This document shows, in pieces, positions 46,766 to 64,000 of a DNA stretch of 64,000 nucleotides. The notes under the pieces were generated by a model that did not search any database, was not told where the DNA came from, and saw nothing but the letters and a program-made list of their open reading frames with translations. A program made the position numbers and the translations under genes. The stretch spans positions 192,001 through 256,000 of the forward strand of contig OZ244170.1 of assembly GCA_965216565.1 (NCBI GenBank), read 5' to 3'. This DNA is from Bythopirellula sp. (GTDB lineage Bacteria; Planctomycetota; Planctomycetia; Pirellulales; Lacipirellulaceae). The first letter of the stretch is position 1. The number at the start of each line of letters is the position of its first letter.

Positions 46766-47737
46766 ATGAATAATCTGTTCCACCCAACAATGGAACGCAA
46801 GCTTGGAGATAAGGAAATCTCTTCATACTCAGGGACGAAGGGCTGCACGGTGTTTGATCGATTCTGGAAATATGTTTTTTTTCTTTGCCTAGCCAGCACA
46901 ATGTCCTTCTCGACTCAGAGCCAGGCCTTAAGCGATGACCATTGGCTTGAGACACTGGAAATCTTTGGCGGAATCGATGGTAGTAAGCAGCCCCAGGATT
47001 TTGGCGTCAATGCGAACTTGGGCGGACGTTTTCACGTGAATTGGGGCGGTCCCGTCCTCGCTGATTACGGACTGGGTATGCAGTTAGGCACTGCAATTGT
47101 TTCTTCGGACAATGCGGTGCGAGTTTACGAACTCGTCGGGGAAGCAGGGGGACGCCACCAGAGTTTCACTACTGCCGGAATGTTTCAGCGTCTTGAAAAT
47201 GGTTTTAGCTGGGGAATAGTCTACGACTTCCTTTACGAAGAGTCGTTCGACGATTTCTTTCTTGGCCAGTGGCGAATTCGTACTGCTTACGATCTGACAC
47301 GAGATTGGCAGGTCGGTATGACAGTGAACATTGCCGAGGAAGACGAAACGGGACAGTTCAATGCCACGACAGTGACACTGGCTCCGATTTCACAGGCCCA
47401 TTGGTATGTGAGGCATCTGTGGCAGACCGGGACTCAAACAACATTTTGGGTAGGTATTGCAGAGGAGCATGGCGAAAACAATGCCGTGACCGGCCCTTCG
47501 CCAGGTAAGGACGAAGTCTTTCTGTTCGGTGCCGATTTCCTCGCCCCGCTGAACGATAGTCTGGCTCTCTACGGCGAGACGAATCTTATGATGCCAGCCG
47601 ACACTGGGACCGTCGATGCATTCCTCGGCGTGCAATGGTTCCCCTGGGGCAATGCAAAACGGGCCCGGCGAACGGATTTCTCTCCACTGTTGCCCGTTGC
47701 CGGCAGCCCAACATTCTCAGTCGACCTCCGCCAGTAA
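46766..47737 (+). CDS. Planctomycete putative outer-membrane beta-barrel protein (DUF6666-like)
   Basis: FGGIDGSKQPQDFGVNANLG motif, alternating aromatic beta-strands, signal-like segment; true start probably downstream of 46766. Confidence 0.6.
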   Translation: MNNLFHPTMERKLGDKEISSYSGTKGCTVFDRFWKYVFFLCLASTMSFSTQSQALSDDHWLETLEIFGGIDGSKQPQDFGVNANLGGRFHVNWGGPVLADYGLGMQLGTAIVSSDNAVRVYELVGEAGGRHQSFTTAGMFQRLENGFSWGIVYDFLYEESFDDFFLGQWRIRTAYDLTRDWQVGMTVNIAEEDETGQFNATTVTLAPISQAHWYVRHLWQTGTQTTFWVGIAEEHGENNAVTGPSPGKDEVFLFGADFLAPLNDSLALYGETNLMMPADTGTVDAFLGVQWFPWGNAKRARRTDFSPLLPVAGSPTFSVDLRQ

Positions 47738-47970
47738 TCGGCGCAATCGCCACAGTTGTTTCAATTGCAAAACTCGGCGCACAAAATGTGACCAGAGGTA
47801 AGGGACTCCCCTAGGCAGGCAGAAAACTGCCATTCTGTGAGCAAGGCTTGTGGGTCTAACCCTACATCAGAAGCCTTTGAATTAAGGTGCGCCGTCGTTC
47901 TGTTGTCCCCCGTGATCAACCTCCACGTGGGTACGGCCCGATGTGCGTCTACCTAACAAATACATAAAAT

Positions 47971-50900
47971 ATGGCTCCAGAATTGACAACTAACGCCTCT
48001 ACAGAGCTTGGCATTGAGCCCTCTTATCCAGCGGAACGCGCTGCGCCCAACGAAGTTGTGGATGCAACGTCGAGCCGTGCGTATCAAGTTCTCAATCAGA
48101 TCAGCGCAGGCCAAGATGGTGTCGCCTACGAAGCCGTCAATAAGAACAACGACCAGCAAGTCGAGCTTTGGAAACTCGTCGGGACTCAACACGTGGTTGG
48201 GCGTGAGGAAGAAGTCCTCCAACGGCTGAGCCTGGTCCAATTGCTTCGCCATCCCGCAACGCGCCGGGTTCACACTGTTATCAAAGACGGTTCCCAACCA
48301 ATTGTCATTCTTGAGACCTCACCACCAGCTACACTGAAAGATTGGCTCCGACTTGGCGGTCCAGATTTCAATCCGCTGACGATTCTTCGATCTGTTGTCG
48401 GGGCACTGGATGAAGCACATAAGCTGGGCCTCTCACACGAAGCAATTTACCCAGAGTCTATTCGATTGCAGAGCGATCTTACGCCGCAACTCGATTTCAC
48501 GCGACTAAGTGTAACGTCGCCCCCAACAGGCGAGCCTGTCAGGTTCTCTCACGCAAACGAGTTACCCTTCGAGAATCGCGACATAGCCAACGACTCTTAC
48601 TGCGTGGGCCAACTAATAGATTGGTTGCTTGAGGAGTATCCAGAATTTGAGCACTCGTGTCATGAAACTTCGAGCCGCCATACCGCTGAGCTCAGGCAGC
48701 TCGCCCAAAGTGCAATTCACGATTCATCATCGGATCGACCCTCGTTAGCGAGATTTGTCGAATGTTTCTCTGCATTTCTGGATGAGGATCAAGAAGACCA
48801 GTCTGCTACGGAATTTGATGCCGAGAAAACTGACAGCGTGGCCGAGGGCTACTCTGGAACTCTGTCGAACCAATTCGTCTCCAGTGATTCGACCGCAGAA
48901 CTATCGGGTAACGTTGCACCGGCCGACTCTACGGCCGAGCTGAGCGCCATACCCCAGGTTGCTGATTCGACTGCCGAGATAGATTCCACTGCAGGTTCGG
49001 CTCCCGGCACCGCCGACTTGGGGCTCTTGGGCCCCGTTCCTACGCGGAAACAGAATGCCATTCGCATGCCTAATGCGGGTGAGCGGCTGGGGCGTTACCA
49101 GATTCTCAAGAAAATTGGCGAGGGCGGGATGGGGGCCGTCTATCAAGCTGAAGATATCAGCGATGGTTCGCTTGTTGCCATCAAAGTACTTAGCGAGTCG
49201 GCGAGTTTAAGGTCCAATTCTTTGCAGCGATTTCACAAGGAAGCGCGACTGCTCGCCGCGGTGAACAATCCTCACGTTGCCAATCTGATCGAAGTCAACG
49301 AGCAAGACGGATTGCACTACATCGTGCTGGAGTTTGTTGAAGGAGTCGATCTCAAGCATGTTTTAGCGCTCCGTTCGCCCCTGGCCGAGGAGCAAGCCCT
49401 GTCCATCGCCGCGGATATTGCTCGAGCGTTAGTCGATGCCCATCAAAGCGAAATTGTGCATCGGGATATCAAGCCCGAAAACGTGTTGCTCGATCTTTCG
49501 TCCGGTTTAAAGGTCGAGGATCTAACTGAAACAGATCAGATGCCAAGGGTCAAGTTGACCGACTTCGGCATTGCCCGACACGTGAACCAATCGGAATCGT
49601 TAGCGGTGACTCAGGCGGGGGGTATCCTTGGCACGCCGATGTATATGTCGCCTGAGCAGTGCAAAGGCAAGGGTGAGATCACGCCGCAATCGGATGTCTA
49701 TGCCCTTGGCATCACACTATACGAAATGCTCGGCGGTAAAACGCCCTTTCAAGCTGACGATCCGATGAAGCTAGCCGGCATGCATTGTTTCGATGCCCCG
49801 CCAGCATTAAGAAAATTAAATCCACAGGTCAGCGAACTCGCTGCGGGAATTGTTGACAAAGCGATTGCTAAGAAGCCGATCGATCGCTACGCCGACGCCG
49901 CCCATATTCTTCGCGACCTCGACCAGCTCTTGCGAGGCGAACCCTCGGAAATAGCGGTGCACCCGTTATTGCCCGAGCACGATCCGTTGCAGGTAATTGG
50001 CAACGAAATGATGTGGGAACTTAAGTCGTCTCCCGAGCAGTTGTGGCCCATGGTGGCAAATACTGAGCGGCTGAATCGTGCGATAGGTTTGCCCCCAGTG
50101 AAATACAGCACGCGCGTCGACGAAAATAACAAGGTGCGTCGATTTGCCGAGATTTCGCTGGCCGGCTTCCAGATCTCTTGGGAAGAGCACCCATTTGAGT
50201 GGATTGAGGGCCGTCGAATGAGTGTCCTACGCGAATTCAAATCGGGCCCGTTCAAATGGTTCACCAGTACGGTTGAGCTAGAAAGAACATCCGAGGGTGG
50301 CACTAATCTGAAACACTGTGTAAAGATTCTGCCCCGAAACATGGTTGGCAAGTTGCTAGCGAAGATCGAGACAGGTAGCAAATGCCAGCGTTCTTTGGGC
50401 CGAGTCTACAGCCGCATGGATGAAACACTCTCAGGCAAACATGGAGAGTCGCCAGTCGTCGATCCGTTTGAACCCGCTGCTTCAATGGCTAAGCACCAGC
50501 GCGAGCGACTCGAGAACCGCATCGATCTGTTAATCAAACGCGGTGTAGACACAGAGCTTGCCCAGATGCTGGGTGACTATGTTGCTGCTGCTCCTGCTCA
50601 GGAGTTAGCAAAGATTCGTCCCTTGGAACTGGCCGAACGATTGCAGTTGGACAGTCAGGAACTAGTGGATGCCTGTCTCCTAGCGAGTGCGGAAGGATTG
50701 CTAATGTTGCAATGGGATATTCTGTGTCCCACCTGCCGCGTCGCTGCTGATACACAAACTACCCTAAAAGAACTCAAAGGCCATACGCATTGCGAAGCGT
50801 GCAATACAGACTTCGACTCAGACATTGCCAACTCTGTAGAGATGGTATTCCGAGTGAACTCTGATCTGCGAAAAACGGAGTTAGACAAGTTTTGCATTGG

Positions 50901-51804
50901 AGGACCAGGGCACTCACCGCATGTGGTTGCACAGGTTCGCATCGAGCCTACAGAGCGTATCGAGCTGGAATTGAACTTGCCAATCGGCGAATACCTCCTG
51001 CGGGGTCCGCAGCTTGCTAAGTCGGTAACGCTCAAAGTCCGCTCATGCGGTGCGCCCAGCCAACATGAGGTGGTGCTCAACGGTAGTCTAGACAATCGAC
51101 AAACCCCACTGTTGCGTGCGGGAAAACAGTTACTGTGGATCTGCAATGAATTCGACACCCTACAAGTTGTTCGGCTCGAACGAACTATTCCACGCAATGA
51201 TGTCGTCACTGCGGCCCAAGCCTCGGCATTGCCTCGTTTTCGAGAGCTATTCCCAGGCGAAGTGCTCGACTCGGGCCAGCTCATCTCTACCGAGCAGGTA
51301 ACCATGGTGGTCACCACCGTCCCCGAAGTCGATGCCATTTATGCTGAGCTAGGAGATGCAGCGGCGTACGAACTGTTGCAACGAAACATCGCGCATCAAC
51401 AAAAAACGATTCAAGAAAGCGGTGGTGCCGTAATCAAGACTGTCGGCGAGGGAGTCGTCGCCGCATTCGATCAGGTTGAAGCGGCTGTCGAGGCTGCATT
51501 TCAATTGGATGATACACGTACCTCGGAACCGGGTTTGGCCAAGCTTGAAAGTTCGGTCGGTATTCATCGCGGACCGGCCTTGGTAACTACCGTAAACGAC
51601 CGCTTGGACTATTTCGGTGCCACTGCACGGATTGCGACTGCCCTGCCCCATGCCTCTCACGGAATCTCAATGACGGAACCGGTGTACTCCGATCCATTGG
51701 TTCACGAATACCTGCAGCAGAACAAGCTTGCAGGCAGCTTGCTAACCCTGGATTTGCCAGGAAAGCCAAATCAAATTGTGCAATGCTTTGCCAACGACGA
51801 GTAA
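47971..51804 (+). CDS. Multidomain Ser/Thr protein kinase: degenerate kinase-like N-terminus, Hanks kinase, START/SRPBCC, DUF5939-like Cys cluster, degenerate class III cyclase
   Basis: IGEGGMGAVY, VAIK, HRDIKPEN, DFG, GTPMYMSPEQ, SDVYALG; SSPEQLWPMVANTERLNRAIG; WDILCPTCR...HCEACN; KTVGEG...VGIHRG...DYFGATARIA. Confidence 0.88.
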   Translation: MAPELTTNASTELGIEPSYPAERAAPNEVVDATSSRAYQVLNQISAGQDGVAYEAVNKNNDQQVELWKLVGTQHVVGREEEVLQRLSLVQLLRHPATRRVHTVIKDGSQPIVILETSPPATLKDWLRLGGPDFNPLTILRSVVGALDEAHKLGLSHEAIYPESIRLQSDLTPQLDFTRLSVTSPPTGEPVRFSHANELPFENRDIANDSYCVGQLIDWLLEEYPEFEHSCHETSSRHTAELRQLAQSAIHDSSSDRPSLARFVECFSAFLDEDQEDQSATEFDAEKTDSVAEGYSGTLSNQFVSSDSTAELSGNVAPADSTAELSAIPQVADSTAEIDSTAGSAPGTADLGLLGPVPTRKQNAIRMPNAGERLGRYQILKKIGEGGMGAVYQAEDISDGSLVAIKVLSESASLRSNSLQRFHKEARLLAAVNNPHVANLIEVNEQDGLHYIVLEFVEGVDLKHVLALRSPLAEEQALSIAADIARALVDAHQSEIVHRDIKPENVLLDLSSGLKVEDLTETDQMPRVKLTDFGIARHVNQSESLAVTQAGGILGTPMYMSPEQCKGKGEITPQSDVYALGITLYEMLGGKTPFQADDPMKLAGMHCFDAPPALRKLNPQVSELAAGIVDKAIAKKPIDRYADAAHILRDLDQLLRGEPSEIAVHPLLPEHDPLQVIGNEMMWELKSSPEQLWPMVANTERLNRAIGLPPVKYSTRVDENNKVRRFAEISLAGFQISWEEHPFEWIEGRRMSVLREFKSGPFKWFTSTVELERTSEGGTNLKHCVKILPRNMVGKLLAKIETGSKCQRSLGRVYSRMDETLSGKHGESPVVDPFEPAASMAKHQRERLENRIDLLIKRGVDTELAQMLGDYVAAAPAQELAKIRPLELAERLQLDSQELVDACLLASAEGLLMLQWDILCPTCRVAADTQTTLKELKGHTHCEACNTDFDSDIANSVEMVFRVNSDLRKTELDKFCIGGPGHSPHVVAQVRIEPTERIELELNLPIGEYLLRGPQLAKSVTLKVRSCGAPSQHEVVLNGSLDNRQTPLLRAGKQLLWICNEFDTLQVVRLERTIPRNDVVTAAQASALPRFRELFPGEVLDSGQLISTEQVTMVVTTVPEVDAIYAELGDAAAYELLQRNIAHQQKTIQESGGAVIKTVGEGVVAAFDQVEAAVEAAFQLDDTRTSEPGLAKLESSVGIHRGPALVTTVNDRLDYFGATARIATALPHASHGISMTEPVYSDPLVHEYLQQNKLAGSLLTLDLPGKPNQIVQCFANDE

Positions 51805-51811
51805 GAACATC

Positions 51812-52906
51812 ATGAATGCAACTGACAATCAATCGACTACTAAAAATCCTTGGACGCTTACCGAATGTCGCGATGACGGCTCGGCGGGGCAGACCATCAA
51901 TATTTCGTCCGTGCAGTTTACTGTGGGGCGAATGGCGGGCACTTCGCTGACGGTGCCTTTCAACTCGGTATCGAAGAATCACGCGGTGATTGAAATCGAA
52001 GAAGGCCGCCCGGTCATACGCGACCTGGGGAGTACGAATGGTACTTTTGTGAACGGTCGGCCAATTACTTCCGCTCCGCTCACCAACGGCGACATCGTTC
52101 AGTTTGCAGACACCATGTACCGAGTGGGAGAGCCACAGGCTGAGGAATTTGGTGCCACCATCGCGGGCGATTCTCTTCCTTGGGCGACTGCACTCATTAA
52201 ATTCGACGAGCTAATGGAGGGCGAGGGAGTTCATCCTCATTTTCAGCCGATTGTCGAATTGCCCAGTGGGAACACGGTGGCCTACGAACTTTTGGCACGT
52301 AGTATCCACGAAGGTCTTCAGAGTCCTTATCAAATGTTTACGACTGCTGCTCGGTTAGGACAAGAATGTGGGCTTAGCGAGCTCATGCGCCGCGAAGGCG
52401 TAAGAGACGCTTTGCAAATGACGGATTGCGGCAACCTGTTTTTGAATACCCACCCTAAAGAGATCATCAATCCAAGATTCTTGCAATCGCTGCACGAGCT
52501 TCGCGTGCTTACCCCCAACTTGCCGATCACGATCGAGTTGCATGAAGGTGCCATCACTCAGATGGACGACATGAAAAACTTCAAAGCGTTACTCGACGAC
52601 CTGGATATGCTGTTGGCCTACGACGACTTTGGCGCGGGGCAAGCTCGACTCGACGAATTGACCGAGATTCCTCCGCACTACTTAAAGTTCGACATCAAGT
52701 TTATTAGAGAAATCGACAAAGCATCGGCTAGTCGTCAAGGCATGGTCGAGACACTAGTGCGCCTAGTGAAAGAACTGGGCGTCTACGCCTTGGCCGAGGG
52801 CGTTGAAAATGCTGACGAGGGGGAGACCTGCACACAACTCGGTTTCGATTTGGCACAGGGCTATCACTTCGGTCGACCGGCGCCGCGTGAGTCTTGGGAG
52901 AAATGA
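51812..52906 (+). CDS. FHA-EAL c-di-GMP phosphodiesterase
   Basis: FHA motifs GR...SVSKNHA...DLGSTNGTFVNG; EAL motifs HFQPIV, ELLAR, FLN, IEL, DDFGAG, LKFD, AEGVE, QGY. Confidence 0.92.
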   Translation: MNATDNQSTTKNPWTLTECRDDGSAGQTINISSVQFTVGRMAGTSLTVPFNSVSKNHAVIEIEEGRPVIRDLGSTNGTFVNGRPITSAPLTNGDIVQFADTMYRVGEPQAEEFGATIAGDSLPWATALIKFDELMEGEGVHPHFQPIVELPSGNTVAYELLARSIHEGLQSPYQMFTTAARLGQECGLSELMRREGVRDALQMTDCGNLFLNTHPKEIINPRFLQSLHELRVLTPNLPITIELHEGAITQMDDMKNFKALLDDLDMLLAYDDFGAGQARLDELTEIPPHYLKFDIKFIREIDKASASRQGMVETLVRLVKELGVYALAEGVENADEGETCTQLGFDLAQGYHFGRPAPRESWEK

Positions 52907-55278
52907 TACCGCACCTAGCTTTACACATTGGTCGACGCGCAGGCCGGAGACTGTTGAATCTTGTGCTGCGCCGCCATAGGGCGACACTTCTTCTGTTTGC
53001 CACAATCACCGCGCTGGCCAGTTTCTACGCCTCGCAACTTCAATTCGAGGATTCGCTAGACTCCTGGTTTTTGCAAGATAGCGAAGAGCTGGCCACCTAC
53101 GAACGATTCCGGGAGCAGTTTGGCACTGACGAATTCATTGTAGTTGGGCTCTACCCAGATGAACTGTTCACTGTAGAGTTCTTTTCTCAATTGAGAGCCT
53201 TCACCCGGGAGCTTGAATCCCAATCGTCAATTGGGCGAGTGGTGTCCCTTGCTAACGTGAAAGTTCTGGATCGAAGGCAGGGTCGCCTCAATCTAGTTCC
53301 CTTCGCGGAAGGACGAGAAGGTACTTGGCCAACATCGGCAGCGGCTATCGCTGACTTGCGTATGCGCCTCAATGCCGCACCGTCCACGGTCGGCCGATTG
53401 ATGGATCAACAAGGCCTGGCTACGGCAGTAGTCGTGGAATTGTCGGAGCAAGCAAGTGAGATTGACAGCAAATCACGAGTTGTCGAGCAGATTCGCCAAA
53501 GCTGCCACAGTTGTTTTTCGCAAGCCGTCACATGTCGGCTTGCGGGAACACCGGTAATGGATGACGCGATATTTCAATATTCCAGGCACGACCTGATTTT
53601 TCTCGCACCTTTGGCAGTATGTGCTTGCACACTGATGTGCTTTGTACTTTACCGGAGTCTTATCGATGCCCTCGCGGCGATAATTGTTCCGCTAGTCGCA
53701 GCATTGTGGGTATTAGGGGTGATGGGGTTTTTTCAGATCCCTATTTCGTTTCTTACTTCAGTGCTGCTCATGGTAATTTTGGTTTCTGGAATGGCCGATG
53801 CCATTCATCTGCTTACAACCTACCATAACAAATACGCAGCCGAACGAGCTCAAACGAAAGCAATACGTAACACACTTGCTGAGTTGTGGAGGCCATGTGC
53901 GATTACAACGGCAACCACCGCTACGGGTTTTATTTCACTAGTTGCATGTGACATCGTGCCGGTAAGAACCTTCGGTTGGTTAGCGGCGTTCGGTGCGGTT
54001 GCGGCCTTGGTGACCAGTTTCTTGATGCTACCGTGCTTGCTGCTTTGCAAAACTAACAGGGACGTGCACGCTAAACCTCTTCCAGTAAACCAACTTTGTA
54101 GCTGGATTGTTCGCCTAACAAAGATGCAACGCAGGCAAAGGGGTATTGCTCTGGCAGTTGTGCTGATGGCCGCCGGGCCGTGCTTGGTGGCTGTTCCGGG
54201 ACTGCAGATCGCTTCGAGTCCCTTGAGTTTGTTTCGTCCGAATAACACCATTCGGCAAGATGCCGAGCACATCGACAACAGCTTCGGAGGCTTCGCAACG
54301 ATGGAGTTCGAATTCTCCTCAAAGAAGGACGTGCTGCATTGGGAGCACTTCACCAAAATCACAAGCTTTACCCGCTGGTTGAAGGACCAACAATTTACGA
54401 GTGGTACGCTCTCGTTCCTCGACCTGCTTTCTGAAACAAACCGGGTCCAGCCCTATAAACGCAATCAACTTGGACAACCCGTGGGGATGTGGAACACCTT
54501 GCGTGAAGCCAAGCAATTGGAGCCGGAGTTCTACAATCGATTGTTACAGAACGAGAACTCTGTTGCTCGCGTCTCCGCCCGAGTGCCACTCACGGGGGTA
54601 CCTATAGACGCTAGACGCATTCATGCGATTGAGAAATATTTGTCGAGCAACTTCACCAACTCCGATCTCACGGTGAGTTCAACGGGATATGTAAAACACT
54701 TCAGCAGTCTGCGGAATAGCTTGATGCAGGGGCAAATCAGCAGCTTCGTCCTGGCAGCGATCTCGATGACTGTGGTACTCGGGATCGCTTTGCGATCGTG
54801 GAGCATGGCATTCCTGTCGCTGGCTCCTAACTTCCTCCCGATCATATGTGGATTTGGCGTAATGGCTGCGTGTGGCATTCCACTCGACCCTGGGACTATT
54901 ATGATTGCCTCGGTTGCGCTGGGTTTGGTAGTCGACGACACATGCCATTTGCTCTGTGGCGTGCAACGACAACAAACTGCTGGAAACAATTTAGATAGGT
55001 CGATGAAGTTAACCGTGAGAGAAGTCGGTCCCGCGCTGTGCATGACCAGCCTTGTGTTGGCGGTTGGTTTTTCGACATTGATGCTTGGAAGTTTTGCACC
55101 CTCAGTCTACTTTGGATGTGTGATGGTGCTCGTGGTCTCCACAGCGCTGTTGGTAGACCTGGTATTGGTCCCCATCCTAGTCTTGGCAATCTGTCCGTTG
55201 ATTGGTTACTTAGCAAAGAACAAACTTCCGAACCAAACGATTCGAACCAGCTCTCAGCGGTATCTAAGCACAAGCTAA
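52903..55278 (+). CDS. MMPL/RND family transporter
   Basis: Two RND halves, GMADAIHL and GLVVDDTCH motifs, LAGTP and SSTGY hinges; ATGA overlap with the EAL gene. Confidence 0.88.
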   Translation: MIPHLALHIGRRAGRRLLNLVLRRHRATLLLFATITALASFYASQLQFEDSLDSWFLQDSEELATYERFREQFGTDEFIVVGLYPDELFTVEFFSQLRAFTRELESQSSIGRVVSLANVKVLDRRQGRLNLVPFAEGREGTWPTSAAAIADLRMRLNAAPSTVGRLMDQQGLATAVVVELSEQASEIDSKSRVVEQIRQSCHSCFSQAVTCRLAGTPVMDDAIFQYSRHDLIFLAPLAVCACTLMCFVLYRSLIDALAAIIVPLVAALWVLGVMGFFQIPISFLTSVLLMVILVSGMADAIHLLTTYHNKYAAERAQTKAIRNTLAELWRPCAITTATTATGFISLVACDIVPVRTFGWLAAFGAVAALVTSFLMLPCLLLCKTNRDVHAKPLPVNQLCSWIVRLTKMQRRQRGIALAVVLMAAGPCLVAVPGLQIASSPLSLFRPNNTIRQDAEHIDNSFGGFATMEFEFSSKKDVLHWEHFTKITSFTRWLKDQQFTSGTLSFLDLLSETNRVQPYKRNQLGQPVGMWNTLREAKQLEPEFYNRLLQNENSVARVSARVPLTGVPIDARRIHAIEKYLSSNFTNSDLTVSSTGYVKHFSSLRNSLMQGQISSFVLAAISMTVVLGIALRSWSMAFLSLAPNFLPIICGFGVMAACGIPLDPGTIMIASVALGLVVDDTCHLLCGVQRQQTAGNNLDRSMKLTVREVGPALCMTSLVLAVGFSTLMLGSFAPSVYFGCVMVLVVSTALLVDLVLVPILVLAICPLIGYLAKNKLPNQTIRTSSQRYLSTS

Positions 55279-55384: not shown

Positions 55385-55768
55385 AGTAGCCGAGGCGGGC
55401 CTCGAACCCCCACGAAGGTTCCCCTTCACTGGATTTTAAGTCCACGAATTTGGCATTGCGCTTACGTGGAACACACAAGGCGTTTATGCATCAACTTCCT
55501 TTTTTTGATGGCTTTCAGCGTTTCAGCGTGGCAAATGGATTGCTCCTGCCATGAATATGTATTGCACACATTGTTCCAATTGTGTTCCAAGAGTCAATCT
55601 GTTCCACGGCCTACGGTAGCAAGATGGGTCAGACCTTTTGCATGTTTATCCTATCGAACGATGTATTTGACGCAAACTAGCTGCTTCGGCATAAACACTT
55701 TGGCAGGTGAACTGAACGCGTTAGTCAGAGTGCATTTCGCTGCTTGGATGGGCGTCACCCGAGCGAAT
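55385..55768. repeat. ~385-bp att-like direct repeat, copy A
   Basis: Aligns with 63544-63928 with about 46 differences by manual count; includes a 69-nt identical block at 55568-55636. Confidence 0.93.
55387..55444 (-). pseudogene. 3' fragment of tRNA-Leu(TAA) (att core), partly decayed
   Basis: Minus strand TGGACTTAAAATCCAGTGAAGGGGAACCTTCGTGGGGGTTCGAGGCCCGCCTCGGCTA: anticodon arm, variable arm, T-arm with a mismatch, 3' acceptor strand; no D-arm or 5' acceptor strand. Confidence 0.88.
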
Positions 55769-55921
55769 TAGAGCTGCGAGAAAAAGGACTTCGAGCCCCC
55801 TAAGAAACAAGATTAGCAAAGTTTGCAAAATAGGCTTTCCAAGAGCACGGAGACCAATTCCACCGCTATTATTTAATGTAACGGGTTGAATTGCATGCCG
55901 CTTGTCGCAAGCATGGAATGA

Positions 55922-57697
55922 ATGTGGTCCTCCCGTCTGTTTTGGAAACTGTTTCTCACCTATGCCGGGCTTGTTCTGATCGCTCTTAGTATCTGTGTCG
56001 CCATTGTGTCGGGGTGGCAGGAAGAGCAATTGGTTGAACAAGTCCGTCGACGGCTGCATGACTCTGCAGCCCTGTTGCGTGACGACTTAGGCAGTCGCTT
56101 GGTTGCAGGCCGCAGTGAAGCTCTGCAGCAGAAAGTACGAAATCTCGGTGAACAGACGCAAACTCGCTTTACTATGGTAACCAGGGAGGGACTTGTACTG
56201 GCCGACTCGGAGCAATTGGGACTAGCCGAAGTTGTCGAGATGGAGAATCATCGCAACCGAAAAGAATTCGTCTTGGCTTCCCGCTCAGGGGAAGGAGTCT
56301 CTCAGCGAAACAGCTCAACACTAGGTGTACCGTTCCTGTATTTCGCTCTGGCGGTTGAGCAAGACAATGAAATCATCGGCTACGTTCGGGCGGCACAATC
56401 GATGGCTTCGATTCAGGAAGAAGTCAGCTCAATCCGTCGGCTAATTTGGTCGGTTGGACTCCTGATTGGACTCTCGGGTCTTGCCACTACCTATTGGCTC
56501 ACGCAACGGATCATAAGTCCTATTCAGGAGTTGACGGATGCAGCCGAGGACATTGCTACAGGAAATTACCCTGAGCGAATCGGAGTCCATTCCAGCGACG
56601 AGCTTGGTATCCTGGCACGTTCGTTTGAGAATATGAATAGTGAGTTGAAATCCAGAGAGAATCAGCTCAGGACCAGCTCCCACCGGCAGCAAGCAGTGCT
56701 AGGTGGAATGATCGAGGGGGTATTAGCTGTCGATAGCCGCCAAAAGGTTCTATTTGCTAATGCGGCAGCGGGAAAAGCACTTTCCTTTCAGCCCGATCAA
56801 ATTGAAGGGCATGCTCTACTGGAAGTTGTTCGCAGCCATGAATTGCGAGAGATTGTAGAGCAGACTCTCAGCTCCCGTGAACTTTGTCAGGGCGAACTTG
56901 CCTGGCAAGCGGACTCGATACGTACGCTCAAGATTCACGCCACCCCGCTTCCTGGCGAACCTTGTCCGGGCGTTGTGCTGGTGTTGCATGATGTGACCGA
57001 GCTTAAACGCCTAGAATATCTTCGTCAGCAGTTTGTCGCGAATGTATCTCACGAACTCAAAACGCCGCTTAGCTCGATCAAAGCCTACACAGAAACACTG
57101 CTTAGCGGAGCACTTGAGGACAAGAGCAATGCACCCCGGTTCTTGCGCCAAATCGACGATCAGGCAGATCGGCTGCACGACCTCATCCTCGACATGCTGA
57201 GCCTTGCTCGGATCGAATCTGGAAATGCCACTCTAGAACTAATTAACGTACCTCTGCAGCGGGTCGTTACGACGAGTCTAGCGGACTATGAAGCACGAAG
57301 CAGATCGGCTCAGATTTCATTGAATCATCAGTCCGATTGCGATTCTCTCGAAGTACGTGTCGACGAAGAATCGTTACAACAGATTATGAGCAATTTGATC
57401 GACAATGCCATTAAATATACGCCCTCGGGGGGGACCATCTCAGTCTGGAGCCACCAGGAAGCAGGCATGGCAGTAATCGAAGTCTCGGACACGGGCATCG
57501 GGATTGCCCCGGAGCACCAGGAGAGGCTTTTCGAGAGATTCTACCGCGTCGATAAAGCCCGCTCTCGCGAGATGGGAGGCACAGGCTTGGGCCTGGCAAT
57601 TGTCAAGCACCTGTGCCAGGCAATGGGGGGAAGCGTGTCAGTCGAGAGCCAGTTAGGCAGGGGAAGCACATTTCGAGTGCGAATTCCCCTCGCTTAA
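55922..57697 (+). CDS. phoR: Phosphate regulon sensor histidine kinase PhoR
   Basis: Two TM helices, MENHRNRKE periplasmic motif, HAMP, PAS, FVANVSHELKTPL, NLIDNAIKY, FERFYRVDKARSREMGGTGLGLAIVKH. Confidence 0.92.
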   Translation: MWSSRLFWKLFLTYAGLVLIALSICVAIVSGWQEEQLVEQVRRRLHDSAALLRDDLGSRLVAGRSEALQQKVRNLGEQTQTRFTMVTREGLVLADSEQLGLAEVVEMENHRNRKEFVLASRSGEGVSQRNSSTLGVPFLYFALAVEQDNEIIGYVRAAQSMASIQEEVSSIRRLIWSVGLLIGLSGLATTYWLTQRIISPIQELTDAAEDIATGNYPERIGVHSSDELGILARSFENMNSELKSRENQLRTSSHRQQAVLGGMIEGVLAVDSRQKVLFANAAAGKALSFQPDQIEGHALLEVVRSHELREIVEQTLSSRELCQGELAWQADSIRTLKIHATPLPGEPCPGVVLVLHDVTELKRLEYLRQQFVANVSHELKTPLSSIKAYTETLLSGALEDKSNAPRFLRQIDDQADRLHDLILDMLSLARIESGNATLELINVPLQRVVTTSLADYEARSRSAQISLNHQSDCDSLEVRVDEESLQQIMSNLIDNAIKYTPSGGTISVWSHQEAGMAVIEVSDTGIGIAPEHQERLFERFYRVDKARSREMGGTGLGLAIVKHLCQAMGGSVSVESQLGRGSTFRVRIPLA

Positions 57698-57710
57698 AAC
57701 CCGATTGCAC

Positions 57711-57755
57711 TTCTCATCCAATCTTCACACTCTCTTCATAGCCTCACGCTATAGT
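57711..57755 (+). promoter_or_regulatory. Putative Pho box promoter of pstS
   Basis: Three heptamers at 11-bp period (TTCTCAT 57711, TCTTCAC 57722, TCTTCAT 57733), then 10 nt, then a -10 element TATAGT at 57750-57755. Confidence 0.65.
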
Positions 57756-57812
57756 CTGAGTTGTGACCTGCCCAGACTATTCCGCCGTATATTTTTCAAC
57801 CGGATACTAGTT

Positions 57813-58787
57813 GTGACACCCAGTCGACATACAGTTTTGTCCACCGTTATTCTGAGCATTTGCCTTGTTCTCCAAGCAGGCTGCAGCAGTTCGAATTCGA
57901 CTCCTACTGGGGCTGGACTGACTGAGAGCGAGCTAGTTCTGTCCGGAGACGTTCGCATTCATGGATCGAGTACCGTTTTCCCAGTTTCGCAAGCGGTCGC
58001 CGAAGAATTCAAAGAGGTGGCACCAAGAGTTAAGGTTTCGGTTGGTTCCGCGGGTACGAGTGGCGGGATGAAAAAATTTGCGGCTGGTGAAATCGACATC
58101 TGCGATGCCTCACGAAGAATAAAAGACAGCGAAAAGGATAACTGTATTGCTTCTAATGTTGAGTTCATCGAGTTAACAGTCGCCGTGGATGGTCTCTCGG
58201 TTGTGGTAAATCCCAAAAACGATTGGGTAGACTGCCTAACCGTCGAGCAACTAAAGACTATTTGGCGGCCTGAAAGTGACGAAACAGTTGTGAACTGGAG
58301 CGATGTCGACCCTGAGTGGCCGGACGAACCTTTGAAACTGTACGGACCGGGCACCGATTCGGGAACCTTCGATTATTTCACCAAAGCCATTAATGGCGAA
58401 GAGCGGGCTAGTCGCGCAGACTATACCGCAAGCGAAAACGATAACCAGCTAGTTCGCGGAGTAATTTCCGATAAGGGTGCCCTTGGGTACTTTGGATATG
58501 CCTACTACGCTGAGAATAAAGATGCCTTGAAACTGTTGGCAGTCGACGGTGGAGAGGGTTGTGTTTCTCCTAATGACACGACTGTGCGTAGCGGCTCGTA
58601 CAAGCCTCTTTCCAGATCACTATTTATCTATGTAAGCAAGTCATCCTTAGAGCGACCGGAAATGGTTGCATTCGTGAAGTTTTACCTGGAGAACGTAGGC
58701 CGCTTGGCTGGCGATGTAGGGTATGTGCCCGTTTCCGATGAAGTGGCCAAGCAAAACAAAGTGCTTTTGCAAAAGGTTATGCAATAG
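57813..58787 (+). CDS. pstS: Phosphate ABC transporter substrate-binding lipoprotein PstS
   Basis: Lipobox LQAGC, GSSTVFP, GTSGGMKKF, ASRRIK, GTDSGTFDYF, GYFGYAY, LSRSLFIYV; GTG at 57813 preferred as start. Confidence 0.93.
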   Translation: MTPSRHTVLSTVILSICLVLQAGCSSSNSTPTGAGLTESELVLSGDVRIHGSSTVFPVSQAVAEEFKEVAPRVKVSVGSAGTSGGMKKFAAGEIDICDASRRIKDSEKDNCIASNVEFIELTVAVDGLSVVVNPKNDWVDCLTVEQLKTIWRPESDETVVNWSDVDPEWPDEPLKLYGPGTDSGTFDYFTKAINGEERASRADYTASENDNQLVRGVISDKGALGYFGYAYYAENKDALKLLAVDGGEGCVSPNDTTVRSGSYKPLSRSLFIYVSKSSLERPEMVAFVKFYLENVGRLAGDVGYVPVSDEVAKQNKVLLQKVMQ

Positions 58788-58845
58788 ACACCAATTGGTG
58801 GTTTAGGTCTCTAATTTTGCAATAAGAACTAAGACTTCAAATGAC

Positions 58846-59781
58846 ATGTCTACAGCAGTTCCCACTCGAGACACACTAGCTGGCAAGTCAAAAGGCTTCG
58901 ATTTTCGTAAAGTCTTTGAGATTGCGATTCGCGGCATCCTAATAGCTTGTACTGCGATTTCGATTGTCACGACCATCGGGATCGTAGTCGTTCTATTCTT
59001 CGAATCATTCCAGTTCTTTCGCGAGGTTTCGATCTGGGAGTTCCTCACTGGCACCCGCTGGTCGCCACTGCTTAAGCCACAACACTTTGGCATCTTGCCT
59101 CTGTTTTGTGGCACTTTGCTCGTAGCAGGTGGATCGGCGATTCTAGCCATCCCTTTGGGCTTGGCCACGGCTATTTATTTGAGTGAGTACGCTTCACCTC
59201 TTGTACGTGAAGTCTTGAAACCTTCGATCGAAGTATTGGCAGGCATACCCTCAGTGGTCTACGGCTACCTGGCAGTTGTCTTTGTTTCGCCATTAGTTCG
59301 TGATGCCATTCCCTCAGCTGATCTATTTAATGCCGCGAATGCCTGTATTGTTGTCGGCATTATGATTTTGCCGATGGTCATCTCGCTGAGCGAAGACATT
59401 CTAAGATCAGTGCCACGTTCATTGCGCGAGGGTGCCTATGCCCTGGGAGCAACCAAGCTCGACGTAATCCTGAAAGTTGTCTTGCCCACCGCCATGTCGG
59501 GTATTATGGCAGCTTGTTTGCTGGCAATTGCCAGGGCGGTCGGAGAAACGATGGCGGTGACACTCGCAGCAGGGGCGACTCCCAACCTAACACTCAACCC
59601 GTTTGAAGGCATTCAAACCATGACTGCCTACATCGTGCAAGTGAGTTTAGGCGACACACCTGCCGGAACACTTGAATACCGCACAATCTTTGCGGTTGGT
59701 TTGGCTCTATTCGTTTCGACTTTCATACTCAACGTATTAGCTCGCTTAATATTAATGCGAGTTGAGGAGAAATACGAATGA
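58846..59781 (+). CDS. pstC: Phosphate ABC transporter permease PstC
   Basis: [49 protein letters not shown]. Confidence 0.94.
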
Positions 59782-60656
59782 GTTTAGTGGAAAATAACAA
59801 TGGTCGCCCTTATGCAAAACTAGTTTCCATTGTCTTTGCTTGGCTATGCGCCGGAGCAGCTTGGCTTTGCGTTTCAATTCTGGTGCTCTTACTGTGGAAT
59901 GTAGTGAGCTACGGCTGGGACGCACTTAGTTGGGATTATGTTAACCGTTTTCCTTCAAGATTCGCTGAGAAGGCAGGTATTAAGCCTGCCCTGGTAGGCA
60001 GTATGTATTTAATTGGCTTGACGGCTTTGTTCGCGGTGCCAGTTGGTGTGGGGGCCGCCATATACCTTGAAGAATATACGCCCAAGAGCCGTTGGCGGAC
60101 ATTGGTGCAAATCAACATCGCTAACTTGGCCGGTGTGCCTTCGATTGTGTATGGGATCTTAGGACTTGGTATGTTCGTGCGGACCATGCAGCTCAACCGG
60201 AGCCTCATGGCCGGAGCCCTCACTTTGACGCTCGTTGTTCTGCCGATTGTCATCTTGGCGGCACAAGAATCGCTCCGAGCTGTGCCCAGTTCTATCCGCC
60301 AAGCATCCTATGCCCTTGGGGCAACGCGCTGGCAAACAGTTTGGCACCAGTTGCTTCCGGCTGCTTTGCCGGGCACGATGACAGGCGTAATTTTGGCGCT
60401 CTCTCGAGCCTTGGGCGAAGCTGCTCCCCTGGTCGCTATCGGCGCCGCAACTTATGTAACTTTCTTACCCGAAGATATCCTTAAAGATGAATTTACTGCG
60501 CTGCCTCTGCAAATATTCAGCTGGGCCAGCGAGCCACAACAGGGATTTCACAAGGTTGCTGCGGCGGGAATCGTTGTATTGCTTTTTGTACTGATTTGCA
60601 TGAATGCAATAGCCGTTGCATTGCGCTATCGATTTAGCAAGGCCAAACGTCCATGA
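59778..60656 (+). CDS. pstA: Phosphate ABC transporter permease PstA
   Basis: [51 protein letters not shown]. Confidence 0.94.
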
Positions 60657-60727
60657 CTTTCGACAATGCCTGTGCAGGCACTCCTTGAGCCCTAAATATT
60701 AAAGAACTAGTCCGTAGGTCAAATGTT

Positions 60728-61621
<894 letters not shown>

Positions 61622-61658
61622 CACGAACAATTCTTCCAAATAACCTACCAGCCTTCAC

Positions 61659-62342
61659 ATGTCCATACATCTTCATCGTGATCTCGAAGCCCTCGAGCAA
61701 GAATTGCTAGCGCAGTCGTCAATTGTTGAACAGATGGTCTATCGCTCGAGTCAGGCACTCGGAGAACTGCGCAGCGACCTCATCGAGCAACTTTATCGCG
61801 ATGAAGATACGGTCAACTCGCGAGAAGTCACAATCGAAGAAGAGTGCTTAAAAATTCTAGCACTCCATCAGCCAGTAGCCGTCGATCTGCGACGTGTGGC
61901 AACAGTCATGAAAATTAATGGCGACCTGGAACGCATCGCCGACTTAGCAGTGAATATTGGCGAACGTGCTCAAGTGTTGGTGCTCCACCCACATTTTCAG
62001 TTTCCTTATAAAATAGACCAGATGGTGGAAGCTGCAACATCGATGGTCCGGGACGCCCTGGATTCATTTGTTCATTTAGATGTCGATGCCGCCCGGAATG
62101 TATGTCAGCGCGACGATGTTGTCGACGATCTTAACCGCCAAGTGATTGAAGACCTCAAAGAGTTTCTTCAAAAAAACATCAGCGAAATCGAACCAGCACT
62201 TCAATTCTTCTCCGCTTCAAGACATATTGAGCGTATTGGAGATCACGCAACAAACATTGCCGAAGATGTCGTCTATCTTGTCGATGGTGAAATAGCCCGA
62301 CACTGGCAAAACGACACTTTCTACGGAGCGACAAACCGATAA
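61659..62342 (+). CDS. phoU: Phosphate signalling complex protein PhoU
   Basis: ALHQPVAVDLR, DLERIADLAVNI, DDVVD, ERIGDHATNIAEDV. Confidence 0.95.
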   Translation: MSIHLHRDLEALEQELLAQSSIVEQMVYRSSQALGELRSDLIEQLYRDEDTVNSREVTIEEECLKILALHQPVAVDLRRVATVMKINGDLERIADLAVNIGERAQVLVLHPHFQFPYKIDQMVEAATSMVRDALDSFVHLDVDAARNVCQRDDVVDDLNRQVIEDLKEFLQKNISEIEPALQFFSASRHIERIGDHATNIAEDVVYLVDGEIARHWQNDTFYGATNR

Positions 62343-62345
62343 TTA

Positions 62346-63053
62346 ATGTCAAAACAAGTCAATATTTTAATTGTAGAAGACGATGCCTCACTAGCCGAGG
62401 TGCTGGACTACAACCTCAGCCAGGAAGGATACAAGACGCATATTGCCCGCGATGGACATCAAGGACTTCGTGAGACCCGTCTACGCTGCCCCAATCTCGT
62501 CATACTCGATTTAATGCTGCCAATGATCGATGGTCTAGAAGTCTGCAGACGATTACGTGCAGATCCAGCGACTCAAGACTTACTTGTGATGATGCTGACT
62601 GCCCGTTCCGAAGAGACGGACCAAATCGTTGGCTTTTCAGTTGGAGCTGACGACTATGTAACGAAACCTTTCAGCGTAAAAGTGCTCCTGCAAAGAATTA
62701 ACGCCCTCTTGCGTCGCAAGGAAAAAAGCAATTCAGATCGTGACGTTATCGTTAGCCAAGGTATTCTCATCGACCATCGGAACCATCGCGCGACTATAAG
62801 CGAAAAACCTGTAAATCTCACGCCGAGCGAGTTTGCGTTGTTGAGCACTCTTGTGCGCCAGCCAGGAAGGGTCTATTCTCGAAGCGAACTTATCGATGCT
62901 TCTCTCGGTGGCGATGCGATTGTGCTGGAACGCACCATCGATGTTCATATTCGTGCCCTACGCAAAAAAATGGGCGCCCACGCCGACTTACTTCAAACTG
63001 TACGCGGCATTGGCTACCGCCTGCGCGATCCGGCAGATGTAGGTGCGACGTAG
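62346..63053 (+). CDS. phoB: Phosphate regulon response regulator PhoB (OmpR family)
   Basis: ILIVEDD, ILDLMLP, MLTAR, GADDYVTKPFS, ERTIDVHIRALRKK, TVRGIGY. Confidence 0.92.
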   Translation: MSKQVNILIVEDDASLAEVLDYNLSQEGYKTHIARDGHQGLRETRLRCPNLVILDLMLPMIDGLEVCRRLRADPATQDLLVMMLTARSEETDQIVGFSVGADDYVTKPFSVKVLLQRINALLRRKEKSNSDRDVIVSQGILIDHRNHRATISEKPVNLTPSEFALLSTLVRQPGRVYSRSELIDASLGGDAIVLERTIDVHIRALRKKMGAHADLLQTVRGIGYRLRDPADVGAT

Positions 63054-63543
63054 CAAACATTTCGATCAACCTTGTTCCTCGCACCACACAATGGGTGACC
63101 AGTTGTCCACGCGGTAATCCTTCAGTGCACGCTTGCAAATGCTAACTTGAAAGACCTAGTTGTTTCTCAATCATCGATAGAATTGTCACTTCTTCAAGTG
63201 AGATGGAGACTTGCAGCGCACAGGGGTTACCCCCTTCCAAGCGTCCGAACGCGATTACCCAAGACACGTTGGCTTCATTGTCCCGGGCACCCTAAGAAAC
63301 TCCGGGCTCACCATGATTTCCTCCAGCATCAAATCAAGCGATGCAGCTCAAGAGTCAACGCGGGTACCAGATGAGATTGATCTGTGTGTAATCAATCGAT
63401 TGGAAGAGTAGGCTCAGAGTCATGCGGCTGAGCCTATAATACGAACGAGGCATTTGCGTTTGATCTGCATGGCACTCTGGATTGATACTCCAGTGCGATA
63501 CAAAAATATGGACCGTCGTAAGTCCGCTGATTGCAAAACATTA

Positions 63544-63928
63544 AGTAGCCGAGGCGGGACTCGAACCCGCACGGGGGTTACCCCCCACTGGATTTTAAGT
63601 CCACGAATCTGGCATTTCACTTACGTGGAACGTACAAGGCGATTGTGCATTAACGTCTTCATTTCTAATGGATTCCGGCGTTTCTGCGTGGCAATTGGAT
63701 TTCTTTTGCCATGAACTTGTATTGCCTACATTGTTCCAATTGTGTTCCAAGAGTCAATCTGTTCCACGGCCTACGGTAGCAAGATGGGTCAGACCTCTTG
63801 CATGCCTATTCTATCGAACGATTTAGTTGACGCAAACTAGCTGCTTCGGCATAAACGCTTTGGCAGTGGAACCGAACGCGTTAGTCAGAGTGCATTTCGC
63901 TGCTTGGAAGGGCGTCACCCACGCGAAT
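63544..63928. repeat. ~385-bp att-like direct repeat, copy B
   Basis: Aligns with 55385-55768 at offset 8159-8160. Confidence 0.93.
63546..63603 (-). pseudogene. 3' fragment of tRNA-Leu(TAA) (att core)
   Basis: Minus strand TGGACTTAAAATCCAGTGGGGGGTAACCCCCGTGCGGGTTCGAGTCCCGCCTCGGCTA: intact anticodon loop, variable arm and T-arm, but the upstream sequence forms no D-arm or acceptor 5' strand. Confidence 0.9.
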
Positions 63929-64000
63929 GTGATGTGCGCACTTTTTGACTTCGGTGGGGGAAGGCCCAAGCGCCCAACGGAATATATTAAGACGCTTGGG

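What the first reader, a model, noticed from the sequence alone, without database searches (positions are those of the whole stretch)
55385..63928. Integrase-less phosphate-acquisition cassette between two ~385-bp tRNA-Leu-anchored direct repeats: candidate tandem cassette array
Seen: 55385-55768 and 63544-63928 are direct repeats, ~88% identical by manual alignment. Each begins with a 58-nt 3' fragment of tRNA-Leu(TAA) on the minus strand, starting in the anticodon stem, and continues with ~325 bp of shared non-coding DNA. Between them lies one functional module, phoR-pstS-pstC-pstA-pstB-phoU-phoB, with no integrase, relaxase or transposase. Neither tRNA copy is complete. Established: tyrosine integrases often cross over in the 7-nt anticodon loop and leave displaced tRNA 3' fragments; Prochlorococcus tycheposons move nutrient-uptake cargo, including phosphate genes, via tRNA sites. 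Inference: a single island would duplicate only the tRNA core. Sharing the long arm as well means at least two successive elements of one family with the same end, so this looks like a stack of non-autonomous cargo cassettes at tRNA-Leu(TAA) mobilised in trans, functionally integron-like but using tRNA att sites. I am not aware of a description of this in planctomycetes. The intact tRNA, more units and the integrase are predicted to the right of the window.
Basis: partly seen in the sequence, partly recalled or inferred. Interest (0 to 1): 0.88.

Follow-up and report, generated by a model that had tools for sequence, protein, structure and literature searches.

The report
Integrase-less island pair at tRNA-Leu
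A planctomycete keeps its only complete high-affinity phosphate-uptake operon in one of two gene cassettes stacked behind a leucine tRNA gene, neither carrying an enzyme to move itself; such stacks are known, but here the cargo ends at short palindromic sites that may point to an undescribed gene-swapping system.

Summary
Confirmed and extended. The two repeats are 88% identical over 385 bp. So two units are stacked: B (8.2 kb, pho/pst) and A (18.9 kb, carbohydrate-use genes). Neither encodes an integrase, and the single-contig genome has no member of the integrase family found at this tRNA in relatives. The left arms keep that family's presumed arm-type repeats; the right arms have lost them. 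B holds the genome's only pstSCAB-phoU-phoBR; the native locus is empty and the operon's tree disagrees with core genes. An independent sample carries B intact. Arm homology stops at 35-bp palindromic sites at all four inner ends, and such sites recur at island boundaries in relatives; their enzyme is unidentified. Verdict: a CIME-like tandem (known kind; this scan noted similar stacks in other genomes) with an unexplained cargo-boundary site family. Ongoing mobilisation by an integrase in trans is not supported.

The parts
55386..55444 (-). Distal 3' fragment of tRNA-Leu(TAA) (59 nt), 7 differences from the intact gene: a re-paired variable arm plus T-arm changes; probably the oldest, displaced 3' end
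55445..55768 (.). Unit B left (tRNA-distal) arm, non-coding, shared with unit A; first ~150 bp of the arm are about 72% like an arm in relative G016
55568..55636 (.). 69-bp block identical in both left arms, holding three TGTTCCA direct repeats; presumed arm-type integrase sites (same repeat pair, inverted, as beside the tRNA in integrase-bearing relatives)
   Evidence: (chance of such a run 0.0005)
55736..55770 (+). Palindromic site, type A (14-bp arms, 7-bp spacer GGGCGTC); left-arm homology ends here
55922..57697 (+). phoR-like sensor kinase
57705..58787 (+). pstS (ORF limits; true start may be later)
58846..59781 (+). pstC
59778..60656 (+). pstA
60728..61621 (+). pstB, the only match in the genome at E<=1e-60
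61659..62342 (+). phoU, the only stand-alone phoU in the genome
62346..63053 (+). phoB-like response regulator
63214..63248 (-). Palindromic site, type B (spacer GGGGGTA), degenerate on the cargo side; right-arm homology ends here
63221..63543 (.).
63545..63603 (-). Middle 3' fragment of tRNA-Leu(TAA), identical to the intact gene (which lies beyond the window, genome 274493-274579, minus strand); centre of an attP-like junction between units B and A
63604..63928 (.). Unit A left arm
63896..63930 (+). Palindromic site, type A; a weaker site follows 92 bp on (63988, running past the window end)
63931..64000 (.). Start of unit A interior, which runs on beyond the window (genome 255931-274161): two DUF4832/DUF4874 proteins, AraC, DUF1559, spherulin-4, GH114, Gfo/Idh, GH109, TIM-barrel isomerase, sodium:solute symporter, no integrase; closed by a type B site (genome 274162-274196), the right arm and the intact tRNA

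Best explanation
Two integrase-less units of one island family are stacked at tRNA-Leu(TAA), built on a re-used scaffold. (1, inferred from relatives) The ancestor was an island with a ~420-430-aa tyrosine integrase just downstream of the tRNA; it recombined in the anticodon loop and left the 3' tRNA half at its far end. (2, loss shown, order inferred) The tRNA-proximal end lost the integrase and its repeat pair before the two right arms diverged, since both share the same stripped arm at 98%. (3, boundaries shown, mechanism inferred) Cargo was exchanged at the palindromic sites that close both arms, giving versions with pho/pst or with carbohydrate genes. (4, inferred) The versions were then stacked through the DNA they share (59-bp tRNA core plus ~320-bp arm). 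Homologous recombination suffices and is what I favour; a passing integrase-bearing island could also do it. Unit B supplies the cell's only Pst system and its PhoBR pair, so it is probably held by selection, while A is the dispensable unit.
For: Both arms shared, cargo unrelated. No integrase in the 27-kb array; 8 PF00589 genes elsewhere, none close to the family at this tRNA (best E 7e-7), which 36 of 120 family genomes carry. Of 30 such integrase loci examined, 7 sit at tRNA-Leu(TAA) and 10 at tRNA-Leu(CAA); 16 carry the ACTT(A/G)CG motif and 6 match the repeat-pair pattern; our left arm has the pair, our right arm only the motif. G008 shows an intermediate: integrase cut after ~50 codons exactly at a palindromic site, one cargo gene, then a type A site and left arm. 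G020 and G027 also have tandems with shared left arms and a distal unit with no integrase hit from my query set; G020's ends in a type A site. GC 49.8% and 48.4% versus 53.6%. In 10 of 13 relatives examined the operon lies beside genes that abut each other in this genome; pho and core trees reject each other's grouping (p-AU 2e-9 and 0.002). Contigs of an independent sample bridge flank, distal att, pho and right arm.
Against: No recombination event was observed; no circle junction or empty-site joint in the 4 runs laid. The palindromic sites were first found at these ends, so their coincidence with the boundaries is partly circular; one of the four scored only 5.7 on a profile built without this genome. 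Arm-type function of the TGTTCCA repeats is inferred from pattern only. RpoB alone did not reject the pho grouping (p 0.34), and the clades were named after seeing the trees. The 69-bp invariant block around the repeats suggests the integrase sites were under selection or recently converted, which fits integrase use better than pure homologous recombination. The two right-arm alleles visible in the independent samples match unit A's arm, not B's; private mutation can explain this, so the order of events stays open.
Confidence: 0.55

Rival explanations
1. One reading: the units are live non-autonomous cassettes, excised and integrated at the tRNA att sites by a tyrosine integrase supplied in trans by a visiting island.
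For: Anticodon-loop core intact at all three junctions; left-arm repeats conserved in a 69-bp invariant block; middle junction looks like an intact attP; the integrase family is common in the family (36 of 120 genomes).
Against: No cognate integrase in this genome; the right arms lack the repeat pair found in integrase-bearing elements, and lambda-type integrases use sites on both arms (own knowledge); no circle seen.
Confidence: 0.2
2. Plain decay: two related autonomous islands integrated in turn and each lost its integrase; the right arms were homogenised afterwards by gene conversion, and the palindromes are ordinary dispersed repeats or regulator sites that only seeded deletions.
For: This is the published route to CIMEs (PMC5704250 passage). 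Broken integrases occur at other tRNAs of this genome and in relatives. The site family is degenerate and also lies between accessory genes far from any tRNA. Left arms are only about 87% alike against 98% on the right.
Against: No integrase remnant in any frame of either arm; both arms of both units end at the same site types in the same orientation; G008's integrase is cut at such a site.
Confidence: 0.22
3. Assembly artefact.
For: The arms break short-read contigs in the source-like runs.
Against: Repeats differ by 2-13%; cargos are unique; an 18.3-kb contig runs from unit A's left arm to a right-arm copy and an independent sample reproduces unit B with its flanks.
Confidence: 0.02

Closest known systems
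CIMEs (cis-mobilizable elements) and tandem accretion, ICESt1/ICESt3 type (PMC5704250, passages read)
   Same: Elements without integration or transfer genes that keep attL and attR, stacked at one tRNA site.
   Different: No ICE or IME in the array or cognate integrase in the genome to mobilise them; two units share both arms with unrelated cargo; cargo ends at palindromic sites.
Dehalococcoides ssrA genomic islands (PMC3146451, passages read)
   Same: Tandem islands delimited by 3' repeats of a structural RNA gene, 15 of them without an integration module, carrying metabolic cargo.
   Different: Serine-recombinase module, 20-bp repeat, T-loop crossover; here a tyrosine-integrase lineage, 59-bp repeat, anticodon-loop crossover and ~320-bp arms.
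Tycheposons of Prochlorococcus (bioRxiv 10.1101/2020.12.28.424599, passages read)
   Same: tRNA-anchored, flanked by partial tRNAs, nutrient cargo including phosphate assimilation.
   Different: Tycheposons encode their own site-specific integrase and often replication genes; these units encode neither.
Acinetobacter dif modules (PMC6449649, abstract only)
   Same: Accessory genes flanked on both sides by short recombination-type sites; an analogy for the inner palindromes.
   Different: Those are XerC/D sites; ours have 14-7-14 geometry and no likeness to this genome's dif-like repeat; no enzyme is identified.
REP/BIME repeats (PMC3733652, PMC6006769, passages read)
   Same: Intergenic imperfect palindromes in clusters with regular spacing.
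   Different: No GTAG foot, longer arms than the CGTC families, only 51% of arm positions pair (48% expected), none clustered at 20 Y1-transposase loci.
Phosphate flexible island of HIMB59 (PMC10734472, passages read)
   Same: pstSCAB-phoU with or without phoBR as an exchangeable block whose tree departs from the host's.
   Different: That island has no tRNA or mobile-element boundaries and is thought to swap by homologous recombination in place; here the operon has left its native locus.

Membership tests
CIME | No integrase or excisionase gene | tested here: met
   (excisionase not searched by its own family; the two arm ORFs scanned had no Pfam match)
CIME | No conjugation or mobilisation genes | tested here: met
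   Pfam scan of 7 unit B and 13 unit A cargo ORFs; three of the A proteins have no family
CIME | Retains attL and attR sequences | tested here: inconclusive
   Cores and left-arm repeats kept; right-arm repeat pair absent
CIME | Mobilised in cis with an adjacent ICE/IME | not testable with these tools
   No such neighbour is present now
Tycheposon | Encodes a site-specific integrase | tested here: not met
Tycheposon | Flanked by full and partial tRNA, adaptive cargo | tested here: met
IME | Encodes its own excision/integration machinery | tested here: not met
Integron cassette array | IntI gene in the genome and attC sites with RYYYAAC...GTTRRRY ends (pattern recalled) | tested here: not met
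   None of the 8 PF00589 genes reads as IntI by eye; sites are 35 bp without these ends; no IntI or attC model was run
pdif module | Flanking XerC/D sites resembling the host dif | tested here: not met
REP/BIME | GTAG- or CGTC-tagged stable hairpin, linked to a RAYT gene | tested here: not met
Lambda-type att site | Arm-type repeats bound by the integrase on both sides of the core | tested here: inconclusive
   Pattern present on the left only; binding not testable

The most novel reading that the evidence does not exclude
Lacipirellulaceae islands use two layers of recombination. A tRNA-targeting integrase delivers a scaffold; a second, undescribed system swaps cargo at 35-bp palindromic sites (14-bp arms, typed 7-bp spacers, arrays with 44-48-bp period) - a natural cassette exchange that can also delete the integrase and that captured the whole Pho regulon core. 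The best candidate enzyme is a ~350-aa Planctomycetota tyrosine-recombinase-like family with Asp where the first catalytic Arg is expected (position judged from recalled motifs), found beside periodic site pairs at 7 of 29 loci and beside the closest pho operon (G020), though not found in the four genomes with the clearest sites.
Probability: 0.25. Interest if true: 0.8.

Novelty: new variant of a known kind. Interest (0 to 1): 0.5.

Why it matters
If only the basic reading holds, this is a clean planctomycete example of integrase-less island stacking, notable because a normally fixed regulon (Pst plus PhoBR) survives only as island cargo. If the palindromic sites are recombination sites, they define a gene-capture system outside integrons and Xer modules, explain how islands lose integrases and swap cargo at fixed points, and offer a new recombinase-site pair that can be tested directly. 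I found no paper holding planctomycete, genomic island, tRNA-Leu and integrase together, and two unread listings for the genus name plus integrase; the library misses most subscription journals.

Tried and rejected
Unit A cargo had no real cover in the two non-source samples X5 and X6, and X5's contigs run unbroken through arm stretches that split the source-like runs; this hints that those strains lack A, but no contig joins across it and the loose end into an intact tRNA may come from other organisms, so it is not counted as evidence. No RNA holder listed. Higher depth on A than on B in the source-like runs is not a copy number. Structured RNA in the arms: Rfam gave only a tRNA-like hit; folding z-scores -1.3 to +0.6. 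Integrase remnant in the arms: none seen in six frames. Convergent-type integrases whose C-terminus reads through the tRNA (G016, G031): only broken copies in this genome, at other tRNAs. Arms in plasmids and phages: tRNA matches only; site pattern in viral contigs: 0. Pattern with 2 mismatches over 401 genomes: three or more hits only in G000, G009, G017; the rest at control level. Sites as a regular feature downstream of the tRNA-Leu integrases: periodic pairs at only 2 of 30 loci. Link of the 350-aa recombinase to the sites: next to nothing with the first profile, weak by single-site counts (11 of 29 loci versus 2-8 for control spacers), clearer by periodic pairs (7 of 29 versus 0-1); its model was poor (pLDDT 56) and was not searched; no meaningful PDB or NCBIfam match. 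An integron integrase 16 kb from the G009 sites is frameshifted and its neighbourhood scored no site. Pho boxes: no convincing match. Synteny of the MMPL gene with pho or the tRNA: its one close homologue (G009) is linked to neither, so the ancestral empty site could not be reconstructed. Dropped rows: 5 of 18 relatives with pstB were not fetched; two of 15 metagenome hits (L089, L090) were treated as chance; L176 was left out of counts because it trained the profile. Whole-record context of the metagenome loci could not be read, which leaves their recombinase content open.
Full report
Setting. The window is bases 192001-256000 of a 5.21-Mb single-contig genome, 53.6% GC. A record title that coincides with a same-genus genome reads Bythopirellula; I use that genus name, and Lacipirellulaceae as its family (listing), as labels only.

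Observation. The repeats are real: 88.05% over 385 bp. Each begins with tRNA positions 29-87 on the minus strand. The only tRNA-Leu(TAA) called lies at genome 274493-274579, 18.5 kb past the window. The layout on the plus strand is: MMPL gene, distal tRNA fragment, left arm, pho operon, right arm, middle fragment, left arm, carbohydrate-use cargo, right arm, intact tRNA. Unit B is 8.16 kb (49.8% GC, lowest 2.9% of 8-kb windows), unit A 18.95 kb (48.4%, lowest 1.2%); third-position GC of pho genes is 0.46-0.54 against a genome median of 0.59. The middle fragment is identical to the gene; the distal one has 7 differences.

No integrase. Pfam found no recombinase, relaxase or transposase among the 25 ORFs scanned. 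The genome has 8 PF00589 matches, none within 700 kb of the array; two are full-length genes at other tRNAs, two look like XerC/D. Relatives commonly carry a 420-430-aa integrase right behind tRNA-Leu: 36 of 120 family genomes match it at E<=1e-80, this genome does not (best E 7e-7). Serine recombinase genes exist elsewhere, not here.

Arm anatomy. In integrase-bearing relatives the DNA behind the tRNA has an ACTTACG motif, then a GGAACA direct-repeat pair, then the integrase (motif at 16 and pair at 6 of 30 loci). In G031 the same pair recurs inverted beside a distal tRNA fragment. Our left arms carry the pair inside a 69-bp block with no difference between A and B (chance 0.0005). Our right arms keep the motif but not the pair. 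I infer descent from this family with loss of the proximal module; that the repeats are arm-type sites is inference from lambda-type att sites (own knowledge).

Palindromic sites. Homology between A and B stops, on both sides, at a motif that points into the cargo. An exact pattern hits this genome 4 times, at exactly these ends, and 3 of 119 other family genomes, with no control hits; 15 metagenome loci match, 13 of them plausibly. The unit is a 35-bp imperfect palindrome, 14-bp arms around a 7-bp spacer; left arms have spacer type A, right arms type B. A half-site profile built without this genome ranks three of the four ends among its 7 best sites; the fourth scores 5.7. Four non-seed sites found by arms alone had B-like spacers, one had another spacer. 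Sites form arrays with 44-48-bp period, up to six in a row, and sequences up- and downstream reassort at the site. In this genome, outside the array, 11 of 145 sites lie within 3 kb of island markers covering 2% of the genome, against 0-4 for other spacer lengths; others lie between accessory genes. Arm pairing is 51% against 48% expected, so a conserved hairpin is unlikely (site orientation was arbitrary). In G008 the integrase breaks off after about 50 codons at such a site, followed by one cargo gene, a type A site and a left arm. In G020 a distal unit with no integrase hit ends in a type A site. Against generality: periodic pairs follow only 2 of 30 integrase genes, and single scores of 11-13 also arise with control spacers.

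Candidate enzyme. G020's pho operon, the closest to ours (84% amino acid), has sites scoring 10 or more on both flanks, as does ours; none of the other 11 operons does (one G020 site helped train the profile). Beside it lies a 352-aa protein with only SAM-domain Pfam hits, placed by language-model features among tyrosine recombinases. Periodic site pairs occur at 7 of 29 loci of this family, versus 2 of 30 other integrase loci, 0 of 20 Y1-transposase and 0 of 29 rpoB loci. But it is not found in G000, G009, G017 or G024. It is a lead, not a result.

The cargo. pstB, a full-scoring pstS and stand-alone phoU occur once, in unit B; a weaker pstS-like gene and a Na/Pi cotransporter lie elsewhere. 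pstB was found in 18 of 26 other genus genomes. In 10 of 13 examined the operon sits beside genes whose homologues here abut at 2.390 Mb with no pho genes between. G020 and G001 have it next to mobile-element genes. In the pho tree this genome and G020 nest with G001, G014 and G013 (100/100); pho data reject the core split (p-AU 2e-9); RpoB alone does not reject the pho clade (0.34), ten core genes do (0.002) (14 taxa, query-anchored alignments, groups named after seeing trees). So the operon is most likely a within-genus replacement of a lost native copy, possibly older than the split from G020.

Other samples. Of 14 runs listed, 6 hold the stretch; I laid 4. X3 and X4 are one sample, probably the source. 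In X5, another study, three contigs differing at about 1-2% of bases cover flank, distal att, left arm, pho operon and right arm, so unit B and its boundaries are real in a second strain. No circle or deletion joint was seen. What the missing cover of unit A may mean is under Tried and rejected.

Mechanism. I favour a re-used, integrase-less scaffold with cargo exchanged at the palindromes and stacked through shared homology (0.55), over live trans-mobilised cassettes (0.2) and independent decay with incidental repeats (0.22). A single unequal crossover between one strain's distal fragment and another's intact tRNA, or a circle recombining through the 383-bp repeat, gives exactly the observed order without an integrase (inference).

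Known context. CIMEs and accretion (PMC5704250, passages) and module-less ssrA islands (PMC3146451, passages) describe the stack; tycheposons encode integrases (bioRxiv 10.1101/2020.12.28.424599, passages); additive islands marked by tRNA-end repeats are described in Methylophilaceae (PMC10872708, passages). No supplements were read. Eight earlier notes of this scan report similar integrase-less stacks in other bacteria and archaea (unchecked), one with bounding palindromes. The stack is therefore ordinary in kind; the site family and the displaced sole pho operon are what is added.

Noticed in passing
L045:7659-8945 (G016), L021:210-1553 (G031), genome 2707403-2708154: Integrase genes whose last ~17 codons and stop are the antisense of the tRNA 3' half (stop from the anticodon loop in the Leu cases); this genome has a frameshifted, truncated relative at tRNA-Glu(CTC).
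   Followed up: partly
L098:905-1963 and L177-L205: Planctomycetota tyrosine-recombinase-like family without a PF00589 match, invariant YGxD and KDLRKT motifs and a C-terminal CPCCRR; matches in 29 of 120 family genomes.
   Followed up: partly
genome 2670000-2682000: Run of accessory genes, several PEP-CTERM-like, with degenerate palindromic sites in most spacers; resembles a cassette array with no recombinase gene nearby.
   Followed up: partly
L041:8600-16400 (G009): 7.7-kb block (PEP-CTERM-like proteins, kinase, sigma factor) bounded by inward-facing B and A sites with no tRNA; a frameshifted integron integrase lies 16 kb away.
   Followed up: partly
genome 1371700-1514000: Large island region behind tRNA-Met(CAT) with three displaced tRNA fragments, ParA and replication-like genes, an integrase relic and a 326-aa recombinase related to the one beside G016's left arm.
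   Followed up: no
genome 1663092-1663136, 1826883-1826917, 1228278-1228318, 3309779-3309821: Further displaced tRNA fragments (Phe, Asp, Pro, Arg); the Phe and Asp ones lie 1.4 and 3.4 kb from their genes with no integrase match nearby.
   Followed up: no
window 46766-55278: Outer-membrane-like gene, Ser/Thr kinase-cyclase, FHA-EAL and MMPL block; the MMPL gene has a close match in only one of 26 genus genomes (G009, whole block, different locus), so possibly an older island.
   Followed up: partly
L113:10919-10990 (G008): Displaced tRNA-Leu fragment with a 13-nt insertion in the variable arm.
   Followed up: no
L099:1438-8278 (G001): pho operon next to replication-relaxation and HerA-like genes, i.e. 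inside another mobile element.
   Followed up: partly
L068, L070: Contigs matching a same-genus planctomycete genome carry a record title naming an unrelated genus; probable mislabel.
   Followed up: no
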